Source: Candidatus Dadabacteria bacterium
GTDB lineage: Bacteria; Desulfobacterota_D; UBA1144; Nemesobacterales; Nemesobacteraceae
Direction: 5' to 3'
Length of the DNA stretch: 64,000 nt
NCBI GenBank assembly: GCA_026705445.1
Contig: JAPPAR010000011.1
Span: forward strand, 145,776-209,775
Part shown: positions 38,050 through 48,544 of the stretch, in pieces
Position numbering within the stretch: position 1 is the first letter of the stretch
Layout of the letters: each line of letters starts with the position of its first letter
The notes under the pieces: model-generated
The model's input: the letters and a program-made list of their open reading frames with translations, nothing else
The model's database searches: none
What the model was told of the DNA's origin: nothing
Position numbers and translations under genes: made by a program

Positions 38050-38433
38050 TTAAAGTGCTGGGTCCAATATATGTTGTTTTAAAGAAACATCAACAGAATT
38101 TTTATCCTTCTTCGATAAACATCCTAGTCGTCTGATAATCATCGATTTTTCTAACGTAAAGAGTTTTAAGCGCACTACCGACGGCACTGCTAAATTGGCG
38201 TCGGCGGGGTCTTTGAGTTTGATATCGCTTTGCCAAGAACTACGCTTGGCGGTTGTGACCATCGCTAAAATCAATTGATCGTGGTTTTCATTGAACTCTT
38301 CGGATGATATAACCAAAGCGGGCCTGCGCTTTTTAACAGAAGAATCGGTAAAGGGGAAAGAAACAACTACAATATCATGGGGTTTAAAGGTTACGCCATG
38401 CATCTTCATCCTCATCTGATAGCCATTCCTCAA
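38050..38433 (-). CDS. MazF/PemK-family toxin (mRNA interferase)
   Basis: The pattern DIVVVSFPFTDSSVKKRRPALVIS matches PemK/MazF. The true start is probably one of the internal Met (M7/M9/M11), and it overlaps the upstream antitoxin. Confidence 0.7.
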   Translation of the reverse strand: MRNGYQMRMKMHGVTFKPHDIVVVSFPFTDSSVKKRRPALVISSEEFNENHDQLILAMVTTAKRSSWQSDIKLKDPADANLAVPSVVRLKLFTLEKSMIIRRLGCLSKKDKNSVDVSLKQHILDPAL

Positions 38434-38608
38434 GGTTTGAAGAAATGCTATCCAAATAAGTGTCTTTAGTGGGCTTGAGCTTGGTTACAATAACACGGTC
38501 TCCGTCTAACTCGAAAACAAGCTTGTCACCTGTTTTAAAGTGTGCGGCCTTACGCAATCCATGAGGAATAGTGACTTGGCCTTTCGAAGTGATTTTGGAA
38601 ATTTCCAC
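38384..38608 (-). CDS. AbrB/MazE/SpoVT-family antitoxin
   Basis: The start is GTG behind GGAGG. The ISKITSKGQVTIPHGLRKAAHFKTGDKLVFELDGDRVIV stretch is a swapped-hairpin (SpoVT/AbrB) domain. The acidic C-terminus is typical of antitoxins. Confidence 0.7.
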   Translation of the reverse strand: MEISKITSKGQVTIPHGLRKAAHFKTGDKLVFELDGDRVIVTKLKPTKDTYLDSISSNLEEWLSDEDEDAWRNL

Positions 38609-38720
38609 AACAACGTACCTCCTTACATGTAAGGATAACAAGGAAGCGAAAATATGCAAGGACATCGAAAACAGTACGACACTACTGAAATGGTAGCAGC
38701 AGTCTCGCCTCCAAGGCTGG

Positions 38721-40337: not shown

Positions 40338-41090
40338 CTAAGTTCGCAAAGGCTGATGAGCACAAACTTTTTTCCTTGAGTTTTTCTTTTTCAGTATTTG
40401 TTGTATCTGTTTTGCGAGTTCTTCCGGCACCTTTTCTTCTTTTCCGAGTGAAAGAAGCAACCTGAAAAAATCATTCTTTAGGGTGTCTTTTGAGTGATGT
40501 CTATGAAGTTGCAACAAAACTTCACTGTGACATTCTCGAACCTTCAATCTGCTTTTGCAAGGGCAGGGAAGATGGCCACGGTAGCCATACTCGAAAAGAA
40601 AAGCGAGCATTGTTAATATGTTGACATGACTACCTAAGCCCAGATCATCTCTGTAATACTCAATAATTCCCTCAACACCATGTGCACGCTCGCCAAAAGG
40701 GTGCTGGCCGTACTTTTTCCAATAGCAGTAACCGTATAAATATGGAATAACTAGATGATTTACGAACCCGAGTAAGGACTCTTGTTCTAGGAAAAACAAG
40801 CGTTTCTCAATTGGGGTAGCCAGACAGAGGGTCCCATCTTGATTCAGGTGTTCATAGTTTTGGTCGATTTTTCCACCTATTTCTCTTACAACCGGAAGAA
40901 CTTCTGGGTAAGCACTGGGAATAGCAAGTTCGATGTCAAAGCAGTCTGTAATCACTGGGAACCCATCGAAGGACGCTTCAAACGAAAGAGGACCTTTTAT
41001 AACTGTTTTCCGGTTCTGAAGAGATATATCTGTAAGGCCTCTATGAGTTTTTTTTAATTCGCAAATTTGGCTTCCGACCTTATTCTTCAT
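40338..41090 (-). CDS. E2 (UBC-fold)-like protein, Cap2-short-type CBASS accessory, with a Cys/His-rich C-terminal extension
   Basis: The UBC-like pattern is ...GPLSFEASFDGFPVITDCFDIELAIPSAYPEVLP...YEHLNQDGTLCLATP (compare HPN...G.ICL). The extra ~90 aa carry CPCKSRLKVRECH...HRHH. The low-GC context is shared with the two upstream genes. Confidence 0.55.
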   Translation of the reverse strand: MKNKVGSQICELKKTHRGLTDISLQNRKTVIKGPLSFEASFDGFPVITDCFDIELAIPSAYPEVLPVVREIGGKIDQNYEHLNQDGTLCLATPIEKRLFFLEQESLLGFVNHLVIPYLYGYCYWKKYGQHPFGERAHGVEGIIEYYRDDLGLGSHVNILTMLAFLFEYGYRGHLPCPCKSRLKVRECHSEVLLQLHRHHSKDTLKNDFFRLLLSLGKEEKVPEELAKQIQQILKKKNSRKKVCAHQPLRT

Positions 41091-41094
41091 TCAT

Positions 41095-42294
41095 TTAGTT
41101 TCTCCATGGCTTTCGTGGTCTGGAAATATGAATCTTCGGTGGGCTTTCGATTTCTCTAGGTGGTACTATCTGTTCCAAATTTCCCAGCACGGGTACACTG
41201 CCTAAAGCAGAAGTAAGAGTTCTTTGGACTTCATTTCGGTTATCTTTACCCAATATATCAACCAGATCTTCTTGTAGACACCTTAACCACATGAAGAAAG
41301 CCTCCGCTCTAGCATGATTATCTTCGTGCCACCTGTCTGCAAAGTTTTCCTCTGGATTAACCGGATTGCCTATATACCACTTCCCATCGGGAGTCCTCTT
41401 TATGGGGCTAATTGACTCTAGGGTTGGTTCAAGTGCTCGACCCTCAAACAGCGCTACGTGTGCACTTAAACTGGCCACGATGTTCTTCAGAGCGGAGTAA
41501 ACATCTGATTCATTTCGATAAAAATATGCGGAGAGGGTTGTAATAATTATTGAGATTGGAGCATAGTCAACACGCTCTGCATTATTGAACTTAATATCAC
41601 GGTGACGCTTCATAATTTGAATCGTGCGTTGAAGAGGGGTACGTACCAACTGATCTGGTACATCTTCAATTTTTGCATATATCTCGGGCACTCGATTTTG
41701 AATAAATTTCTTCTGCTCAGCATATACGAGGTCGAACGCAGGCTTGTTCCGGCCATCAAACCATAGACCATACCCTTTAGGGTCGCTTATTGACCATCTA
41801 TAGAGGGAAAGAAATTTATTTGTTATTGCAATTGCTGTATTCAGATAGCCTTTTGGATAAGGGACTGATGGCAGAACATCTAAGTGAAAACCTACATTGT
41901 CTTCCTCAGAGTATATTAGAGTCCAGCACCTCTTGCCTTCCTCATCTAGCATTCTCTTATACCTGTCATGTTCTTTTAGCCTGTCACCGACTAACTGCTT
42001 TACGTACTCAGGCTTGGCCCACTCTTTTAGCAAGGGGATTTCGCACACAAGATCAATGTCATAATCTGCTTCAATACCGTTCCTTATTGGTCTTGTGACT
42101 GTGCCTAACCGAAATGAACCTTGTGGATAGATGTCTAACCCAGAATCACAAGATCCGGGGTAATCTCCGCCTTCCAGCCATTTTGCAACAGCTTGGTAGC
42201 GCTCGACAGCATCTTTGTACTTGACCGGGGAAATATCTAGGTCCCCTGCAACTTCGTTTAAAAAGTTAGAATATCTAGCTTCATCAATTCTCAT
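41095..42294 (-). CDS. cGAS/DncV-like nucleotidyltransferase (CD-NTase)
   Basis: The Pol-beta-type NTase motif is GSFRLGTVTRPIRNGIEADYDIDLV (GS...[DE]x[DE]). At ~400 aa the length is typical, and it is sandwiched between a patatin and an E2-like gene. Confidence 0.75.
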   Translation of the reverse strand: MRIDEARYSNFLNEVAGDLDISPVKYKDAVERYQAVAKWLEGGDYPGSCDSGLDIYPQGSFRLGTVTRPIRNGIEADYDIDLVCEIPLLKEWAKPEYVKQLVGDRLKEHDRYKRMLDEEGKRCWTLIYSEEDNVGFHLDVLPSVPYPKGYLNTAIAITNKFLSLYRWSISDPKGYGLWFDGRNKPAFDLVYAEQKKFIQNRVPEIYAKIEDVPDQLVRTPLQRTIQIMKRHRDIKFNNAERVDYAPISIIITTLSAYFYRNESDVYSALKNIVASLSAHVALFEGRALEPTLESISPIKRTPDGKWYIGNPVNPEENFADRWHEDNHARAEAFFMWLRCLQEDLVDILGKDNRNEVQRTLTSALGSVPVLGNLEQIVPPREIESPPKIHISRPRKPWRN

Positions 42295-42296
42295 TC

Positions 42297-43304
42297 TTAA
42301 TCCTCCAACTTATAATATGGTTTGAAAGCTTCTACTGGTTTGTCGAAAAATATAGCTTCGAGGCTGGGTTGCCAGCTTCGCCCCTCGGAGTGGCCGAGTC
42401 CTTTTAAGTCTTGTATGGTCTTTGTGTCGTCCATTTTATAGGTGTTATATGGAACCGTCTGATTTACTCTGTATATAGCGGTACGTTCATGTTCATGACC
42501 CGTTAACAGTTTTGCGATACCCATAGCCCCCTGGGACTGTCCGTCCATGAATAGGTTAATAATTCTTGAGTTAAGCGTTCCGAGACCAGCGCGTTTTGGT
42601 ATATTGTACGCCTCCTGCAGACACCCTAGACTTAAGACGCGAAGCGACTCTCTTGGCCAGTTCAGCAGGGAGATGGCCTCAACAACAGCAATCGCTACAG
42701 GATTGTTTGCCCATATACCGCCGTCAATGAGGGCGACACCATGCTGTGTAACGTGTTGCTTGAAATAGGAAGGAGCTGCTGATGTCGCCATAGCTACATC
42801 AACTGCGCTTGATTTGTAATCTGTTTTTAGCCGAGGATGATGTGCTGTTTTATAGATATAGACGGAATTAGCAACCGGATTCCAAGCTGGAATAAGTAAC
42901 CGGGTTTTTGCTTCACCGATGCGTTTTTCCCCAAGCACATCATGAAGAACAGCTCGGAGAGGTTCAGAATTATACTTTCTTAGAAAACACCATTTAACTG
43001 CTCGGATTTTCCTGAGGAGAAAATTCAGAAACGGTCCATTATTTTTACCAAATACCTCATAACTTCTGTTTTCGTAAAAATTCAATAGTTGCGATGCTGA
43101 AACTCCCATGCTGAGACCAAGCGCAATGATTCCTCCTGTGGAACTTCCCGCAATTAGGTCGAAATACTTTCCAATAGGGTGATCAAGGTGTTTTTCCAGT
43201 TCAGCAAGAAATGCCGCAGGAAAAGTACCGAGGACTCCCCCTCCGTCAATACATAGGATTCGTTTTTTTGCTATTCCGGTATTTTCTTTCTTAACCCTGT
43301 TCAA
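42297..43304 (-). CDS. patatin-like phospholipase (CapV-like CBASS effector)
   Basis: The oxyanion motif is DGGGVLG, the nucleophile elbow is GSSTGG (GxSxG), and the catalytic Asp lies in ...IDGG... Confidence 0.85.
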   Translation of the reverse strand: MNRVKKENTGIAKKRILCIDGGGVLGTFPAAFLAELEKHLDHPIGKYFDLIAGSSTGGIIALGLSMGVSASQLLNFYENRSYEVFGKNNGPFLNFLLRKIRAVKWCFLRKYNSEPLRAVLHDVLGEKRIGEAKTRLLIPAWNPVANSVYIYKTAHHPRLKTDYKSSAVDVAMATSAAPSYFKQHVTQHGVALIDGGIWANNPVAIAVVEAISLLNWPRESLRVLSLGCLQEAYNIPKRAGLGTLNSRIINLFMDGQSQGAMGIAKLLTGHEHERTAIYRVNQTVPYNTYKMDDTKTIQDLKGLGHSEGRSWQPSLEAIFFDKPVEAFKPYYKLED

Positions 43305-43526: not shown

Positions 43527-43910
43527 ATGTCTTTTGGTTATGCTTTGAAAAAGTTTCGTGAAGGGCGTGGTTTAACCCTTCGAGAGCTTGGGAAACTGTG
43601 TGGAATAGACCATACCTATATCCATCGATTGGAAAAAGAAGAAAGGACTTCCCCATCGGAAGAAACTGTCGACTCTCTCATTAATACACTCAAGCTCCGT
43701 GGACGCAAGGCTCGCCTGTTGCGTTTTCTTGTTGGACAGACAGTCAGTGACCAGCTTGTTGAAGTCTTTCTAGAGGATGAAGAACGCCCCATAGAAATTT
43801 TTGAGTCTTTGGCCTTCATGAGCTTCAGAGGAAAACAACCTAAAACTAAAGAAGAATGGCGCAAGTGGGCTGAACGGCTGGAAGAGTTTATGAAGAATGA
43901 GCAAAGATAA
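43527..43910 (+). CDS. XRE-family HTH transcriptional regulator (CapH-like)
   Basis: The helix-turn-helix is LTLRELGKLCGIDHTYIHRLE. It is divergent from the CBASS operon and overlaps the downstream peptidase gene. Confidence 0.7.
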   Translation: MSFGYALKKFREGRGLTLRELGKLCGIDHTYIHRLEKEERTSPSEETVDSLINTLKLRGRKARLLRFLVGQTVSDQLVEVFLEDEERPIEIFESLAFMSFRGKQPKTKEEWRKWAERLEEFMKNEQR

Positions 43911-44802
43911 AGCAAAAGAGCTTGAAATTGTTTTAAAGGCTCGCGATTTCATTAGAGAATCTGGAATAAATTCCGTGCCTGTTGATCTTAAGCGTTACTG
44001 TGCGGTTGCTAAGGCTAAAATTAAGGTTCGCTATGATCTCGATGATGAAGAATCAGGCCAGACTTTTCCCTTGAACAGTAAAAATATTATCACTGTTAAC
44101 GGTAATCATACGGAAGAAAGGCAACGATTTACAGTTCTGCACGAGATTGGTCATATTATTCTGGAACTACCCTCAAGGCATCAAAATGGTTGTATAAAAA
44201 CAACTGATTTGATCAGTTACAGGCAACGCCCAGAAGAAGAGGTCCTATGCGATATTTTTGCGGCGGAATGCCTCTTGCCGTATGATTTTTTCGAGAAGGA
44301 TATTGAAGATGTTGACATATGTCTCGATACGATAAAGAACCTGTCAAAACGTTACAAAGCTTCTATACACTCTACAGGTTCCAGGTTTGCTGCTAATTGT
44401 GAAGGGCTTTGTTCTTTTGTTCTTATTGAAGAAGGTAAAATTCGCTATGTATCCAGTTCAAAATCTCTGCGTGAACTTAAGGGCTGGATTGACATCGGTG
44501 TGCCAGTTCCTCAAAACAGCGCAGCTTTTCAACTGATCAAAAATCGATCTGAGACTGAGCATTACGATGATGAAATTCCTACTGAGATTTGGTTCAACAA
44601 TGGTATCGGAAATTACGATATGTTGTGTGAGGAAGCAATCTTTATAAAAGAATGGAATCAATGTCTTTCCATTCTTTGGTTTGATGAAAACTTGAGACCT
44701 GCAGGTGAAATCGAACCTTACGATGTTGATTATGGGGAATCGTCATTACCCAGAGAATTTGATGGAGTATTGACGTGGCCATCAAGAAGTCGGAGGAGAT
44801 AA
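43897..44802 (+). CDS. ImmA/IrrE-family zinc metallopeptidase (CapP-like)
   Basis: The HEIGH motif (VLHEIGHIILE) is followed by a downstream Glu/Cys-rich region. It is paired with the XRE HTH. Confidence 0.75.
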   Translation: MSKDKAKELEIVLKARDFIRESGINSVPVDLKRYCAVAKAKIKVRYDLDDEESGQTFPLNSKNIITVNGNHTEERQRFTVLHEIGHIILELPSRHQNGCIKTTDLISYRQRPEEEVLCDIFAAECLLPYDFFEKDIEDVDICLDTIKNLSKRYKASIHSTGSRFAANCEGLCSFVLIEEGKIRYVSSSKSLRELKGWIDIGVPVPQNSAAFQLIKNRSETEHYDDEIPTEIWFNNGIGNYDMLCEEAIFIKEWNQCLSILWFDENLRPAGEIEPYDVDYGESSLPREFDGVLTWPSRSRRR

Positions 44803-44868: not shown

Positions 44869-45942
44869 ATGTATACAGACTATACTGTTTCAGAAACAGA
44901 CTCCCAAAATTGTCCTGATAACGGAAGACACTTCTGTAGATATTTTCAACTCCAAAACAGACGGTATTTAGGAAACAAATACAAGTTACTTGGATTTATT
45001 GAGAATGTAATTTCTCAAAAGTGCGAGTCGGTAGCCTCTTTGTGTGATATTTTTGCCGGTACCGGTGCAGTTTCTGAAAGATTCAATAGTTTGGAAGTTA
45101 AAATTATTTCCAATGATCTTCTTTTTGCTAACTATGTTTGCTTGAATGCGTTTTTAGGAATTGCCGGCTACCAGTTAGCAAATATTTTTGAAAAAATAGA
45201 ATATCTTAATAGTCTGCCGAGCGATGAAGAAAACTATTTTTCGAAACACTTTGGTGGAACGTATTTCTCAGACGAGAACGCAAGGAAAATTGGAGCGGTA
45301 CGCGAGGAAATAGAAAAAATCGCGGAAAATGAGGAGGAAAGAAACGTCCTGATTTGTTCGTTGCTTTATGCGGCGGATAAGGTTGCCAATACAGTGGGTC
45401 ACTACGACGCTTTCCGTAAGAAGTTGGACATGCTACAGCCGGTAACTCTTCTGATTCCTTCTATTGACTATTCACGTAATTTGAACAACGAGATTTACAA
45501 GGAGGATGCAAACGTGCTGATTGAAAAGATTTCTTGCGATGTCTTGTATGTCGATCCACCATATAATTCACGTCAATACTCTGACGCATATCATCTTTTG
45601 GAAAATCTTGCGGAATGGAAGAAGCCCGAGGTTATTGGTGTAGGCAAGAAAATGGACCGTTCTCATATAAAGAGTGCCTATTGTCTCAAGGATGCAGCGA
45701 CCGCGTTTGCAGACTTGGTCGAAAAGGCGAACTGTAACCATATTCTGCTTTCTTATAACAATACTGGTGATTCAAAGGATGGGCGCTCAAATGCAAGAAT
45801 GAGTGATGATGAGATTCTCCAAATTCTGGATGATAAAGGAGAAATTGAAGTTTTTGAAAAGGATTACAAACCCTTTACAACGGGAAAGAGTAATGGAGAG
45901 AGCAACGCGGAACGAATTTTCTATTGCAGAGTAACGAAATAA
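44869..45942 (+). CDS. D12-class (Dam-like) N6-adenine DNA methyltransferase
   Basis: The N-terminus RYLGNKYKLL, the AdoMet motif DIFAGTGAVS and the catalytic DPPY (YVDPPYNS) are present. Confidence 0.8.
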   Translation: MYTDYTVSETDSQNCPDNGRHFCRYFQLQNRRYLGNKYKLLGFIENVISQKCESVASLCDIFAGTGAVSERFNSLEVKIISNDLLFANYVCLNAFLGIAGYQLANIFEKIEYLNSLPSDEENYFSKHFGGTYFSDENARKIGAVREEIEKIAENEEERNVLICSLLYAADKVANTVGHYDAFRKKLDMLQPVTLLIPSIDYSRNLNNEIYKEDANVLIEKISCDVLYVDPPYNSRQYSDAYHLLENLAEWKKPEVIGVGKKMDRSHIKSAYCLKDAATAFADLVEKANCNHILLSYNNTGDSKDGRSNARMSDDEILQILDDKGEIEVFEKDYKPFTTGKSNGESNAERIFYCRVTK

Positions 45943-47759
45943 TGACGAAAAAACCTTGGTCGGTTACAACAACGGTACGAAACCCCGACAGATTAAGAGG
46001 CTTTTTGGCCGTTTTGCAAGAGCTTGAAGGCTCGGATTGGAACCATGAGAATCAGAAAAAGTATCAAATTCTTCTGATTCAATCTAGGCTATACGGTTAC
46101 GGAAAACAGCAGTTTTACAACGGACTTACGGACGAACAAATTGAATTAATTGATAACCCGTCAACGGAGATTTCTTTTGAACAAGCAGAGGAGATTTTCG
46201 ATGAGAAAAATTACGAAGATCCTCCAATGCGTGGAAGACAATCATTAAACCCTTTGAAAAAGTTCGGATTTGCTGTAATCAAAAATAGAAAAATATTTAT
46301 TACGGACTTGGGAAGGTTGTTTTTACAGGATGATTTTAAAGATAATCTTGGAGAAATTTTTCTTAAAAGTTTCCTAAAGTGGCAATTACCGAATCCTGAT
46401 AGTCAAGACTATCCAAAGGACACATATTACGATGTCAAGCCCTTTGTTGCCACGCTTCATTTAATTAACAAAGTAAATCAAAAAGAAATCGATTGTGACA
46501 ACAAACCAAAAGGGCTCAGCAAACAGGAATTCTCTCTTTTTGTTCCAACACTACTGCACTACAAAGATATAGCTTTCTATGCCCAAAGAATCGTTGACTT
46601 GAGACGAGAAGGAACAACAAGAAGTGGGGTTGTTTCAGAAAGCTACAAAAAACAGTTTGCAGAGAAATTCCTGGAAACTGATAACCCCGAGGAAGTAGAT
46701 AAGCTCCTAAAAAACCTGAAGGACTATGGGGATAATACCATTCGTTATTTTCGGTTAATTCCATATGTTTACATTCATGGTGGTGACTTCTATGTTGACT
46801 TGGAGCCGAGAAGAAAAATTGAAATCGAATCACTGCTCAATCATAACAACGCGCAGACAAAAAGCTTTGAGTCAAAAGAAGAATATTTTGCATATATATC
46901 TGATATTTCTAGACCACAGCTTCCTTGGGAGACTTTTGAGAAACGTATTGAGATTATTAAAGAGCTTATTGAGAAAGTACATCAATGCGAAAGAGTTTTG
47001 CAGAAGGAAAATATAGAGATCAGGAACTACTTGAAGATGCAAAATGATGAGTTGGGAGATTACATAACGGAATTAAGGAATTACAGACGATCATTGCTGG
47101 AAGAGAAAAATCGCAAAAAATCTCAATCAGTTGAACAAATTAAGTCTTGTATTAAAAACCTGAAAAATATTCATCATTCTGAAGGCGATCGCCCGATACT
47201 ACTTGAGAAACTGGCTACACTCGGTTTACATGCACTTGATGACGCAAGGGAAATAAAACCCAATTAACCAGTCGGGGATGACAATGAACCGACTTTTACG
47301 GCCCCGGGAGATGTTCCAGACATTGAATGTTTTTATAAAAGCTTCAATGCAATTTGCGAAGTTACGATGTTAACCGGTCGGAATCAATGGTACTACGAAG
47401 GGCAGCCGGTGATGAGGCATTTCAGGGATTTTGAAGATGAGCACAAAGACAAACTATCTTACTGCGTGTTTATTGCCCCAAAGTTGCATAGAGATACCAT
47501 CAATACTTTTTGGAATGCGGTAAAGTATGGATACGAAGGGCAACGGCAAAAAATAATTCCACTTTCAATTAGTAACTTTGTTTCTATTTTAAAATCCTTG
47601 CTTGATATGAAAACGAAACAAAAATCTTTGAGGCATGAAAATCTTTCTTCGCTGTATGACCAGATATTGTCCTCTACTAATTCTTTTAGTGATTCAAATG
47701 AATGGTTGGGAAGTATCAGAGCTACTATTTCCTCGTGGCAGAAAGACATCGCTTCGTAA
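45924..47759 (+). pseudogene. large Type IIS-like restriction endonuclease gene (possibly AlwI/BstNBI family) interrupted by one in-frame TAA at 47265-47267
   Basis: The track ORFs 45924..47267 and 47367..47759 are in the same frame. Translating across the gap gives ...REIKPN*PVGDDNEPTFTAPGDVPDIECFYKSFNAICEVTMLTGRNQWYYEG..., a PD-x(n)-E-x-(K/T)-like nuclease core downstream of the stop. It is flanked by two methyltransferases. Confidence 0.5.
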
Positions 47760-47773
47760 ATGCGAGGGCAGAT

Positions 47774-48544
47774 ATGAGAACGGGGATTATATACAATGGT
47801 GATTGCGTCAAAGTGATGAGAGAGAAAATCGATGAAAAATCCATCGATTTAATTTTCGCTGACCCTCCTTACAATCTTTCTGGAAGTGGCTTAAAATGGG
47901 AAGGAAACAAAACCGGCGGCAACTGGTACATGATCAATGAAAATTGGGACAAAATGACAGCTCCTGAGTATATGCAATTTACGAGACAGTGGATCAGTTC
48001 TTGTCATAGGGTTTTGAAGGATAACGGGTCAATTTACATTGCATGCAGTTATCACAATATAAGCGAGGTGATGATTGTATTAAAACAACTTGATTTCAAA
48101 ATCAATAACGTTATTACTTGGCGCAAGACAAACGCGATGCCGAATATGACAAAAAGAGTTTTCACGCACTCAACGGAGTTTATAGTTTGGGCGGTAAAAG
48201 GAAGAGGTTGGACATTCAATTATGAAGAAATAAAGGAAATAAATCCCGAAAAACAAAAGGACGGAAGCCCCAAACAGATGCGCGACTTTTGGGAATTGCC
48301 GCTTGTACAAGGGCGAGAAAGATTGCGGGGTGAAGATAACCGTGCTTTGCACCCTACACAAAAACCGGAAGAAATGCTTAAAAGAATCATATTAGCAAGT
48401 TCTAATGAAGGCGAAGTAGTTCTTGACCCTTTTCTTGGGAGTGGGACAACGACTTATGTGGCAAGAAAATACGGTCGTAAGTGGATTGGAATTGAGCAGA
48501 ATAGTGAGTATGTAGGAATTGCTAAGAAAAGAATGAAAAAGTAA
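47774..48544 (+). CDS. beta-class N6/N4 DNA methyltransferase
   Basis: The catalytic motif is DPPYN. HPTQKP...DPFLGSGTT is the AdoMet motif in the order typical of beta-class enzymes. Confidence 0.85.
   Translation: MRTGIIYNGDCVKVMREKIDEKSIDLIFADPPYNLSGSGLKWEGNKTGGNWYMINENWDKMTAPEYMQFTRQWISSCHRVLKDNGSIYIACSYHNISEVMIVLKQLDFKINNVITWRKTNAMPNMTKRVFTHSTEFIVWAVKGRGWTFNYEEIKEINPEKQKDGSPKQMRDFWELPLVQGRERLRGEDNRALHPTQKPEEMLKRIILASSNEGEVVLDPFLGSGTTTYVARKYGRKWIGIEQNSEYVGIAKKRMKK

What the first reader, a model, noticed from the sequence alone, without database searches (positions are those of the whole stretch)
40338..41090. E2-like Cap2 carries an unusual ~90-aa Cys/His-rich C-terminal extension
E2-only Cap2 proteins of short Type II CBASS are usually ~150-170 aa. 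Here the UBC-like core is followed by ...GYRGHLPCPCKSRLKVRECHSEVLLQLHRHH... with a CPC...C.H...HRHH cluster that looks like a metal-binding or zinc-finger-like module, and then a Lys-rich tail. An appended zinc module on a CBASS E2 could be a target-recognition or auto-regulation domain. As far as I can tell from the sequence this is not a described feature of these systems.
Basis: inference. Interest (0 to 1): 0.55.

Follow-up and report, generated by a model that had tools for sequence, protein, structure and literature searches.

The report
CBASS E2 with SecA-type zinc knuckle
The Cys/His cluster is a real, invariant SecA-type (SEC-C) metal-binding motif, but it is the standard architecture of a very large family of E2 regulators of CBASS phage defence, not a peculiarity of this gene, and its role is untested.

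Summary
The ORF at 40338-41090 (-) is real. It is the last gene of a capV (patatin) / CD-NTase / E2 CBASS operon, with capH and capP transcribed divergently. The protein has a complete UBC/E2 core (residues 1-168, invariant H81 and C89). This is followed by CPCKSRLKVRECH (C176, C178, C187, H188) and three helices.

The cluster is a SecA-type SEC-C metal-binding motif with the fixed spacing CxCx8CH:
- The four ligands are 100% conserved in 74 of 75 genome loci, down to 29% identity.
- 45 of 121 homologues hit Pfam SEC-C.
- A family profile hits the SecA zinc-domain structures 1TM6, 1OZB and 1SX0.

The extension is not unusual:
- Typical homologue length is 243 aa.
- About 1,650 50%-identity clusters match at E<=1e-10.
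- Seven PADLOC CBASS E2 models of 216-241 positions span the motif.
- RefSeq already names plasmid homologues "SEC-C metal-binding domain-containing protein".

I found no solved structure and no paper on this E2 family.

The likely role, which is inferred, is a metal clasp. It would fix a helical subdomain onto helices alpha2/alpha3 and the active-site loop, helping to handle the CD-NTase tail. That tail carries an invariant (K/R/Q)PW motif and no conserved glycine.

Verdict: an ordinary member of a known kind, carrying an under-studied domain.

The parts
40338..41090 (-). E2-like CBASS regulator gene, 250 aa plus stop. The start codon lies 4 nt after the CD-NTase stop codon.
   Evidence: ORF listing. 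PADLOC E2 model PDLC00871 matches residues 2-241 to profile positions 4-240 of 241, E=4e-77. Junction sequence read directly.
40587..41090 (-). UBC/E2 core, residues 1-168: alpha1, beta1-beta4, active-site loop, alpha2-alpha4.
   Evidence: AlphaFold2 model with pLDDT 93 and its DSSP elements. Foldseek hits to UFC1 and TSG101-UEV with probability 0.99-1.0. Weak Pfam Prok-E2_B hit on residues 46-98.
40824..40850 (-). Active-site segment H81-L-N...C89, an E2 'HPN...Cys'-like motif.
   Evidence: H81 and C89 are invariant in 121 homologues and in 75 genome loci. Codons verified.
40527..40565 (-). SEC-C (SecA-type) metal-binding motif C176-P-C178-K-S-R-L-K-V-R-E-C187-H188, spacing CxCx8CH.
   Evidence: The ligands are 100% conserved and the spacing is fixed in 258 of 259 motif-bearing homologues. 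45 of 121 homologues hit Pfam PF02810. The family profile hits SecA zinc-domain chains 1TM6, 1OZB and 1SX0, and YchJ 9L6B.
40359..40526 (-). C-terminal helical subdomain, residues 189-244: helices 189-198, 201-213 and 223-244, including the Lys-rich stretch 234-241.
   Evidence: pLDDT is 87-95. L192, L195, T203, D207, F208, L225 and R231 are >=90% conserved among close homologues. Co-variation links residues 195, 199, 203 and 204 to core helices alpha2/alpha3.
40341..40358 (-). Non-conserved extreme C-terminus, residues 245-250 (HQPLRT).
   Evidence: These columns are gaps in 88-96% of homologues. The last 10-residue block has pLDDT 62.
41095..42294 (-). CD-NTase (cGAS/DncV-like cyclase), 399 aa.
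   Evidence: Pfam DncV-like_NTFase. PADLOC Cyclase model PDLC00780, E=3e-111. Nearest solved relatives are 9WOO (E=3e-42) and SmCdnG 8HSB (E=5e-28).
41104..41112 (-). K395-P396-W397 tail motif of the CD-NTase, followed by R-N-stop.
   Evidence: (K/R/Q)-P-W(Y) is present in 72 of 74 associated CD-NTases, usually 2-4 residues from the C-terminus. Codons verified.
42297..43304 (-). CapV-type patatin phospholipase effector, 335 aa.
   Evidence: Pfam Patatin, E=7e-29. NCBIfam CBASS_lipase scores 243 bits against a cut-off of 200. PADLOC Effector/Phospholipase, E=2e-99.
43527..43910 (+). capH-like HTH regulator, transcribed divergently from the operon.
   Evidence: Pfam HTH_31 and HTH_3. PADLOC capH, E=1e-13.
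43897..44802 (+). capP-like M78/IrrE metallopeptidase. It overlaps capH by 14 nt.
   Evidence: Pfam Peptidase_M78, E=1e-14. PADLOC capP, E=1e-49.

Best explanation
The gene encodes the E2-like regulator of an E1-less, JAB-less ('type II short' / E2-CBASS) operon, capV / CD-NTase / E2. The operon sits under a divergent capH/capP control module.

The protein belongs to a large, phylogenetically broad E2 family with a fixed three-part architecture:
1. A complete UBC core with an H...C active site (H81, C89).
2. A SecA-type SEC-C metal-binding knuckle, CxCx8CH (C176, C178, C187, H188).
3. A three-helix C-terminal bundle.

The 'extension' is therefore ancestral to the family and is not a local addition.

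Shown: the identity of the motif, its invariance, the family size, the strict pairing with an upstream CD-NTase, and existing database annotation.

Inferred:
- The four ligands bind one Zn(II), or possibly Fe as reported for SecA-like domains.
- The knuckle acts mainly as a structural clasp. It locks the C-terminal helices onto helices alpha2/alpha3 and buttresses the alpha2-alpha3 loop (P131, E134, H137) that flanks the catalytic Cys.
- Together these elements form the platform that holds and processes the CD-NTase C-terminal tail, which carries an invariant (K/R/Q)PW motif. Processing would be by E1-independent cleavage and thioester or isopeptide attachment, by analogy with SmE2.
For: Operon and family:
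- Searches identify the operon genes.
- PADLOC E2 models of 216-241 positions cover residues 2-241 of this protein. They also cover the motif region in distant relatives.

Motif identity:
- The CxCx8CH spacing is fixed in 258 of 259 motif-bearing homologues.
- The ligands are 100% conserved in 74 of 75 genome loci, down to 29% identity, equal to C89 and H81.
- Pfam SEC-C hits 45 of 121 homologues.
- The top PDB hits of the family profile are SecA zinc-binding domains.

Not unusual:
- Median length is 242-243 aa.
- 2,325, 1,648 and 395 cluster representatives match at E<=1e-3, 1e-10 and 1e-30.
- RefSeq uses the name 'SEC-C metal-binding domain-containing protein' beside a nucleotidyltransferase gene or an S-4TM effector gene.

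Coupling to the cyclase:
- A CD-NTase lies immediately upstream in 73 of 75 loci.
- Natural CD-NTase::E2 fusions P0139 and P0200 retain RPW or QPW internally.
- The tail motif is present in 72 of 74 associated CD-NTases.

Integration of the module:
- pLDDT is 87-97 across residues 170-240, consistent with one compact body.
- Co-variation pairs W124-T203, G120-L195, I142-H199, F166-L204, G138-R171, T92-R135 and A91-R135 link the extension to the core and the loop to the active site.

Analogy: SmE2 cleaves the cyclase C-terminus and forms thioester and isopeptide bonds without an E1.
Against: - No metal can be seen in silico.
- The window's own protein does not reach any Pfam SEC-C hit, because it has K179 and R181 where 93% of homologues have Gly.
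- The structural-clasp role rests on an AlphaFold model whose coordinates I could not inspect. It also rests on mean-field co-variation at Neff of about 257, which has moderate reliability.
- The SmE2 analogy crosses families with no detectable sequence similarity.
- The glycine that SmE2 uses (G406) is not conserved here. The residue after W is R in 37, G in 18 and K in 8 of 72 tails. The chemistry may therefore differ.
- The conserved basic residues of the knuckle (K/R at motif positions 7, 8 and 10) would also fit a partner-binding role like that of SecA.
Confidence: 0.75

Rival explanations
1. The SEC-C knuckle is chiefly a docking or targeting element, as in SecA, where it binds SecB, the ribosome and anionic lipids. 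Here it would tether the E2 / CD-NTase pair to a cellular partner or to the membrane, near the CapV lipase substrate or a PspA-like acceptor.
For: - The family profile matches the SecA metal-binding domain, including the peptide crystallised with SecB in 1OZB.
- Basic residues in the knuckle are conserved: K/R at motif positions 7 and 8, and R at position 10 in 219 of 258.
- In a B. cereus type II CBASS the cyclase is partly membrane-associated and is conjugated to PspA.
- Patatin lipases are the commonest effector in these loci.
Against: - The motif is internal and flanked by highly conserved, confidently folded segments. In SecA it is a flexible terminal tail.
- The family occurs with non-membrane effectors and in very diverse phyla, so no common partner is evident.
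- The aromatic residue of the SecA motif (Tyr; from my own knowledge of SecA) is replaced by V, L or I.
Confidence: 0.2
2. The module is an E3-like substrate-recognition zinc finger. The protein would then be a self-contained E2/E3 hybrid that selects lysines on targets other than itself or the cyclase.
For: Some eukaryotic E2s use C-terminal extensions for target or chain specificity (established knowledge).
Against: - There are only four ligands and so one metal site. There is no RING or cross-brace signature, and no Pfam zinc-finger or RING hit.
- Foldseek finds nothing for the C-terminal part.
- The strict one-to-one pairing with a CD-NTase, and the natural fusions to it, point to the cyclase itself as the partner.
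Confidence: 0.08
3. The Cys3His site is a redox- or metal-sensitive switch. It would release or activate the E2 / CD-NTase pair under infection stress (auto-regulation).
For: Zn-thiolate sites can act as redox switches, and SecA-like domains have been reported to bind iron in vivo. Both points are from my own knowledge and were not tested here. CapH/CapP indicate stress-linked control of the locus.
Against: No specific evidence supports this. Invariance of the ligands is equally expected for a purely structural site.
Confidence: 0.05
4. The extension is an artefact: a chance Cys/His cluster, or an ORF lengthened by a frameshift or a fusion with a downstream gene.
For: None beyond the non-conserved last 6-9 residues.
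Against: Hundreds of homologues from many phyla have the same length and motif. The model is confident across the region.
Confidence: 0.01

Closest known systems
CBASS 'E2' proteins as catalogued in PADLOC-DB (models PDLC00859, 861, 865, 870, 871 and 872, plus PDLC00833), i.e. type II-short / E2-CBASS accessory proteins
   Same: There is a full-length match: residues 2-241 align to positions 4-240 of the 241-position model, E=4e-77. The operon context is the same: CD-NTase immediately upstream, an effector, and no E1 or JAB gene.
   Different: Nothing architectural. The window protein has K179 and R181 in place of the usual Gly-x-Gly of the motif, and a few extra non-conserved C-terminal residues.
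SmE2 of Serratia marcescens E2-CBASS (PDB 8HSB, 8YJY, 9KKB; Yan et al. 2024; Xiao et al. 2026, PMC12948482)
   Same: It is also an E1-less E2 encoded next to a clade-G-like CD-NTase. It has a catalytic Cys in the loop after beta4. It is expected to engage the cyclase C-terminal tail. The window's CD-NTase is homologous to SmCdnG (E=5e-28).
   Different: - SmE2 is 18 kDa, with last residue cited R162. It lacks helices alpha3 and alpha4, ends in a Lys-bearing loop, and no zinc is mentioned.
- There is no detectable sequence similarity to this family, even with a family profile at E<=10.
- SmCdnG uses a conserved C-terminal Gly (G406). Here the tail is (K/R/Q)PW plus 2-4 residues, and Gly follows W in only 18 of 72 tails.
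SecA C-terminal metal-binding domain / Pfam SEC-C (PF02810); also YchJ and YecA
   Same: The ligand set and spacing are identical (CxCx8CH), with a conserved Pro, Ser and basic residues: CPCGSGxKVRxCH here against CPCGSGKKYKQCH in SecA.
   Different: - The motif here is internal, followed by about 55-60 residues of helices and embedded in a folded domain. It is not a terminal tail.
- The aromatic Tyr position is aliphatic (V, L or I).
- The host protein is an E2, not a translocase ATPase.
Cap2 (E2-E1 fusion of canonical type II CBASS; Pfam Prok-E2_B)
   Same: It is a distantly related E2 active-site region (Prok-E2_B hit on residues 46-98, E=0.0012) that also regulates a CD-NTase.
   Different: There is no E1 adenylation domain and no partner Cap3/JAB gene. 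The Pfam score of 19.2 bits is below the 25.4-bit cut-off. A 602-position PADLOC E1-E2 model matches only residues 51-92.

Membership tests
CBASS E2-only accessory protein (type II short / E2-CBASS) | UBC/E2 fold with a conserved catalytic Cys preceded by a conserved His | tested here: met
   PADLOC E2, E=4e-77. Foldseek hits to UFC1 and UEV. H81 and C89 invariant.
CBASS E2-only accessory protein (type II short / E2-CBASS) | Encoded in an operon with a CD-NTase and an effector | tested here: met
   capV / CD-NTase / E2 are separated by 2-nt and 4-nt gaps. A CD-NTase lies upstream in 73 of 75 related loci.
CBASS E2-only accessory protein (type II short / E2-CBASS) | No E1 (ThiF-like) domain and no JAB/Cap3 gene in the system | tested here: met
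   The protein is 250 aa with no E1 hit. The neighbours are pyruvate kinase, capH/capP, and methyltransferase and restriction-endonuclease genes.
CBASS E2-only accessory protein (type II short / E2-CBASS) | Covalent attachment of the CD-NTase C-terminus to the E2 (thioester or isopeptide) | not testable with these tools
   Needs biochemistry. The only indirect support is the natural CD-NTase::E2 fusions and the conserved tail motif.
SmE2-type E2-CBASS (Yan et al. 2024) | About 160-aa E2 with detectable sequence relatedness to SmE2 | tested here: not met
   Neither the single sequence nor the family profile hits any SmE2 chain in the PDB at E<=10. The length is 250 aa against about 162 aa.
SmE2-type E2-CBASS (Yan et al. 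2024) | Conserved Gly at the CD-NTase C-terminus used for linkage | tested here: not met
   The window's cyclase ends ...KPWRN. Gly follows W in only 18 of 72 family tails.
SEC-C / SecA-like metal-binding domain (PF02810) | Cys-x-Cys-x8-Cys-His/Cys ligand pattern with the conserved Pro and Ser | tested here: met
   The window has C176-P-C178-x-S180-...-C187-H188. The x8 spacing holds in 258 of 259 motif-bearing homologues.
SEC-C / SecA-like metal-binding domain (PF02810) | Significant match to the curated profile | tested here: inconclusive
   The window protein has no SEC-C hit at E<=1. 45 of 121 homologues hit at E<=0.01. The family profile hits SecA zinc-domain chains at E=0.004-0.016.
SEC-C / SecA-like metal-binding domain (PF02810) | Binds Zn (or Fe) through the four ligands | not testable with these tools
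   Requires metal analysis of purified protein.
Cap2 (E2-E1 fusion, Prok-E2_B) | C-terminal E1 adenylation domain and a Pfam Prok-E2_B match above the cut-off | tested here: not met
   Prok-E2_B scores 19.2 bits against a 25.4-bit cut-off, and there is no E1 domain.

The most novel reading that the evidence does not exclude
The SEC-C knuckle and helical subdomain are not just scaffolding. They would be the sensing or targeting device of this E2 family. For example, they could bind a host machine (ribosome, membrane, or a PspA- or SecB-like partner) or a phage product. Binding would gate an unusual glycine-independent cleavage and conjugation at the cyclase (K/R/Q)PW tail. That would define a second, mechanistically distinct class of E1-less ubiquitin-like regulation in CBASS.
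Probability: 0.15. Interest if true: 0.65.

Novelty: new member of a known kind. Interest (0 to 1): 0.3.

Why it matters
The locus itself is an ordinary, well-recognised CBASS. The useful points are comparative.

- The only biochemically and structurally characterised E1-less CBASS E2 (SmE2) represents a short family.
- A separate and very large family is unrelated in sequence to SmE2, has no solved structure, and always carries a SecA-type metal site. About 1,650 50%-identity clusters match it at E<=1e-10.
- This family is paired with cyclases whose tails end in (K/R/Q)PW rather than a conserved Gly.
- In the paper library I could search, no CBASS paper discusses a SEC-C motif in the E2 protein.
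- If the metal site or the tail chemistry prove functionally distinct, models of E2-CBASS regulation built on SmE2 would not generalise.

Tried and rejected
- phmmer of the E2 against PDB sequences found nothing at E<=10.
- NCBIfam has no model for the E2.
- Foldseek against the PDB gave only weak UBC/UEV matches to the N-terminal 110-140 residues and nothing for the extension.
- Foldseek against viral structures gave nothing significant.
- Burroughs et al. 2015, the original SMODS/E2 comparative paper, is not held. I could not check whether it mentions SEC-C.
- A PDB search with the CD-NTase tail peptide found nothing, so I could not compare the SmCdnG tail residue by residue.
- Three literature calls failed on term length.
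- I rejected a chance cluster or ORF artefact because of conservation.
- I rejected a RING or zinc-finger E3 module because there are only four ligands and the SEC-C signature is present.
- I rejected a 'local addition to a short E2' because the whole family has the module.
- I considered predicting a CD-NTase-E2 fusion or complex. I did not run it because the tool returns no coordinates or contacts, so no interface could be read.

Full report
**Observation**

It is the last gene of a tightly packed minus-strand operon:
- A patatin phospholipase at 42297-43304. It hits Pfam Patatin, NCBIfam CBASS_lipase above its cut-off, and PADLOC Effector.
- A CD-NTase at 41095-42294. It hits Pfam DncV-like_NTFase and PADLOC Cyclase at E=3e-111.
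- The E2 itself.

The intergenic gaps are 2 nt and 4 nt. A capH-like HTH gene (43527-43910) and a capP-like M78 peptidase gene (43897-44802) are transcribed divergently. No E1 or JAB gene is present. This is an E1-less 'type II short' / E2-CBASS.

**Anatomy of the protein**

An AlphaFold2 model built on 121 sequences is confident (mean pLDDT 93, pTM 0.86). Its elements, in order:
- alpha1 (residues 2-15)
- four strands (21-70)
- an active-site loop
- helices 93-102, 106-127, 138-149 and 155-168
- a short non-helical segment (169-188)
- helices 189-198, 201-213 and 223-244

Foldseek against the PDB returns UFC1 and TSG101-UEV, which have E2/UEV folds. Probabilities are 0.99-1.0 but E-values are weak, and only 110-140 columns align. 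H81 and C89 are invariant in the family. The UBC core therefore ends near residue 168, and the extension is about 82 residues.

**What the Cys/His cluster is**

The segment C176-P-C178-K-S-R-L-K-V-R-E-C187-H188 has the ligand pattern CxCx8CH.
- Among 259 motif-bearing homologues, the spacing is x8 in 258. The consensus is CPCGSGxKVRxCH.
- 45 of 121 homologues hit Pfam SEC-C (PF02810) at E<=0.01.
- A profile of the family searched against all PDB sequences finds SecA C-terminal zinc-binding domain peptides as its best hits (1TM6, 1OZB, 1SX0). YchJ (9L6B) follows more weakly, at E=0.5.
- The window's own copy has Lys and Arg at the two Gly positions. This explains why Pfam does not flag it directly.
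- The four ligands are 100% conserved in 74 of 75 genome loci spanning many phyla, down to 29% identity. That matches the conservation of the catalytic Cys.
- Of the 'HRHH' residues, only H199 is conserved, and only among close relatives.
- The last 9-12 residues are lineage-specific.

**Is it unusual?**

No.
- The 120 best database homologues are mostly 240-249 aa.
- An exhaustive profile search of 1.84 billion cluster representatives finds 2,325 matches at E<=1e-3 and 1,648 at E<=1e-10. The median length is 242 aa.
- Of the best 150 representatives, 140 have the strict motif. Six more have a C-x-H or similar variant, and four are truncated or frameshifted.
- PADLOC's CBASS E2 models (859, 861, 865, 870, 871, 872 and 833; 216-241 positions) align across the motif region, both in this protein and in distant relatives.
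- RefSeq already names plasmid-borne homologues 'SEC-C metal-binding domain-containing protein'. These lie beside a 'nucleotidyltransferase' gene or an S-4TM effector gene. One NCBI metagenome-assembled-genome homologue carries a similar name.

The second (residues not conserved) is not met.

The single characterised E1-less CBASS E2, SmE2 from Serratia marcescens, is 18 kDa, and the last residue cited in the papers is R162. It lacks helices alpha3 and alpha4 and ends in a Lys-bearing loop over the active site. The two papers describing it do not mention zinc. Neither the window protein nor the family profile detects SmE2 or Cap2 in the PDB at E<=10.

The long SEC-C form is therefore a separate E2 family with no solved structure. 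Full-text searches for CBASS or CD-NTase together with SEC-C returned only papers in which SEC-C refers to unrelated proteins. The Krüger et al. type II paper contains neither term. I could not access Burroughs et al. 2015.

**Context and the partner cyclase**

- A CD-NTase lies immediately upstream of the E2 in 73 of 75 related loci. It is often accompanied by a patatin effector and by capH/capP.
- The closest locus is a Candidatus Dadabacteria metagenome-assembled genome with the same gene order. Its patatin is 93% identical, its CD-NTase 80% and its E2 72%.
- The associated cyclases share a striking tail: ...P-(R/K)-(I/V)-H-I-(T/S)-x-P-A-(K/R/Q)-P-W. It is usually followed by 2-4 residues and is present in 72 of 74.
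- The residue after W is R in 37 tails, G in 18 and K in 8. The glycine used by SmCdnG is therefore not conserved here.
- Two natural CD-NTase::E2 fusions keep RPW or QPW at the junction (P0139, 651 aa; P0200, 616 aa). This is consistent with the motif being a recognition or processing site for the E2.

**Likely mechanism (inferred)**

By analogy with SmE2, the E2 would bind the cyclase tail. It would cleave near the PW motif and hold the cyclase as a thioester or isopeptide adduct that controls activation. SmE2 cleaves the cyclase C-terminus and forms thioester and isopeptide links without an E1.

For the extension, the evidence favours an integrated structural role:
- pLDDT is high throughout residues 170-240.
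- The flanks of the knuckle are strongly conserved: Y170-R171-G172-H173, L192 and L195.
- A mean-field co-variation analysis (Neff about 257) recovers UBC-like pairs, such as L12-V110, F37-I47 and E54-R69.
- The same analysis couples the extension to helices alpha2 and alpha3 (W124-T203, G120-L195, I142-H199, F166-L204).
- It also couples R171 to G138, and the 128-137 loop to the active-site segment (T92-R135, A91-R135).

I therefore propose that a Zn (or Fe) clasp fixes the C-terminal helices against alpha2/alpha3. The clasp would also buttress the loop carrying the near-invariant residues P131, E134 and H137 beside C89, helping to form the tail-binding platform. This role is plausible but unproven.

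A SecA-like docking role for the basic knuckle remains open, with the ribosome, the membrane or a chaperone-like partner as possible targets. So does a redox or metal switch.

**Verdict**

- The sequence observation is correct.
- The metal-binding reading is supported and can be sharpened to 'SEC-C / SecA-type metal-binding motif'.
- The claims of unusualness and of being unannotated are not supported.
- The locus is a new member of a known, catalogued kind.
- Residual interest lies at family level: an abundant, structurally uncharacterised E2 class with an invariant metal site and a non-glycine cyclase tail.

Noticed in passing
window 41104-41112 (-); loci L001-L075, CD-NTase C-termini: CD-NTases paired with this E2 family end in a near-invariant ...(I/V)-x-I-(T/S)-x-P-A-(K/R/Q)-P-W motif (72 of 74), usually followed by 2-4 residues. 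The residue after W is R in 37, G in 18 and K in 8, so the C-terminal Gly reported as conserved for SmCdnG-type cyclases is not conserved here.
   Followed up: partly
proteins P0139 (651 aa) and P0200 (616 aa): These are natural single-chain CD-NTase::E2(SEC-C) fusions. They keep RPW or QPW at the domain junction, which suggests processing in cis.
   Followed up: partly
window 38050-38665 (-): A MazF/PemK toxin gene and a MazE/AbrB antitoxin gene overlap each other. They lie just downstream of pyruvate kinase, beside the CBASS.
   Followed up: partly
window 44869-48544 (+): A restriction-modification cluster: a D12-class N6-adenine methyltransferase, an AlwI-family endonuclease and an N6_N4 methyltransferase. 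The endonuclease appears split into two ORFs: 45924-47267 matches profile positions 3-325, and 47367-47759 matches positions 365-441. It may be a disrupted gene.
   Followed up: partly
window 43897-43910: capH and capP overlap by 14 nt. The capP-capH / capV-cdn-E2 arrangement is syntenic with the Candidatus Dadabacteria locus L001 and about 20 other loci.
   Followed up: partly
window 40548-40556 (-), residues K179 and R181: The window's SEC-C motif reads CPCKSR instead of the family consensus CPCGSG, where Gly is 93% conserved at both positions. The closest homologues, P0001 and P0002, share K179 but keep G181. This is why Pfam SEC-C does not flag this copy.
   Followed up: yes
representatives P0180, P0184, P0219, P0229, P0233, P0269: A minority variant of the last ligand pair: C-x-H (in one case C-x3-H) instead of C-H. 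A four-ligand site is still preserved.
   Followed up: no
locus L053, 3780-4166: One related locus has a truncated 128-aa E2 lacking the SEC-C region. It is probably a pseudogene or an assembly break.
   Followed up: no
PDB entry 9WOO chain A: The closest solved relative of the window's CD-NTase (E=3e-42) is a 396-aa 'Cyclic GMP-AMP synthase' deposited as a single chain. I could not determine whether it comes from a SEC-C-type E2 operon.
   Followed up: no
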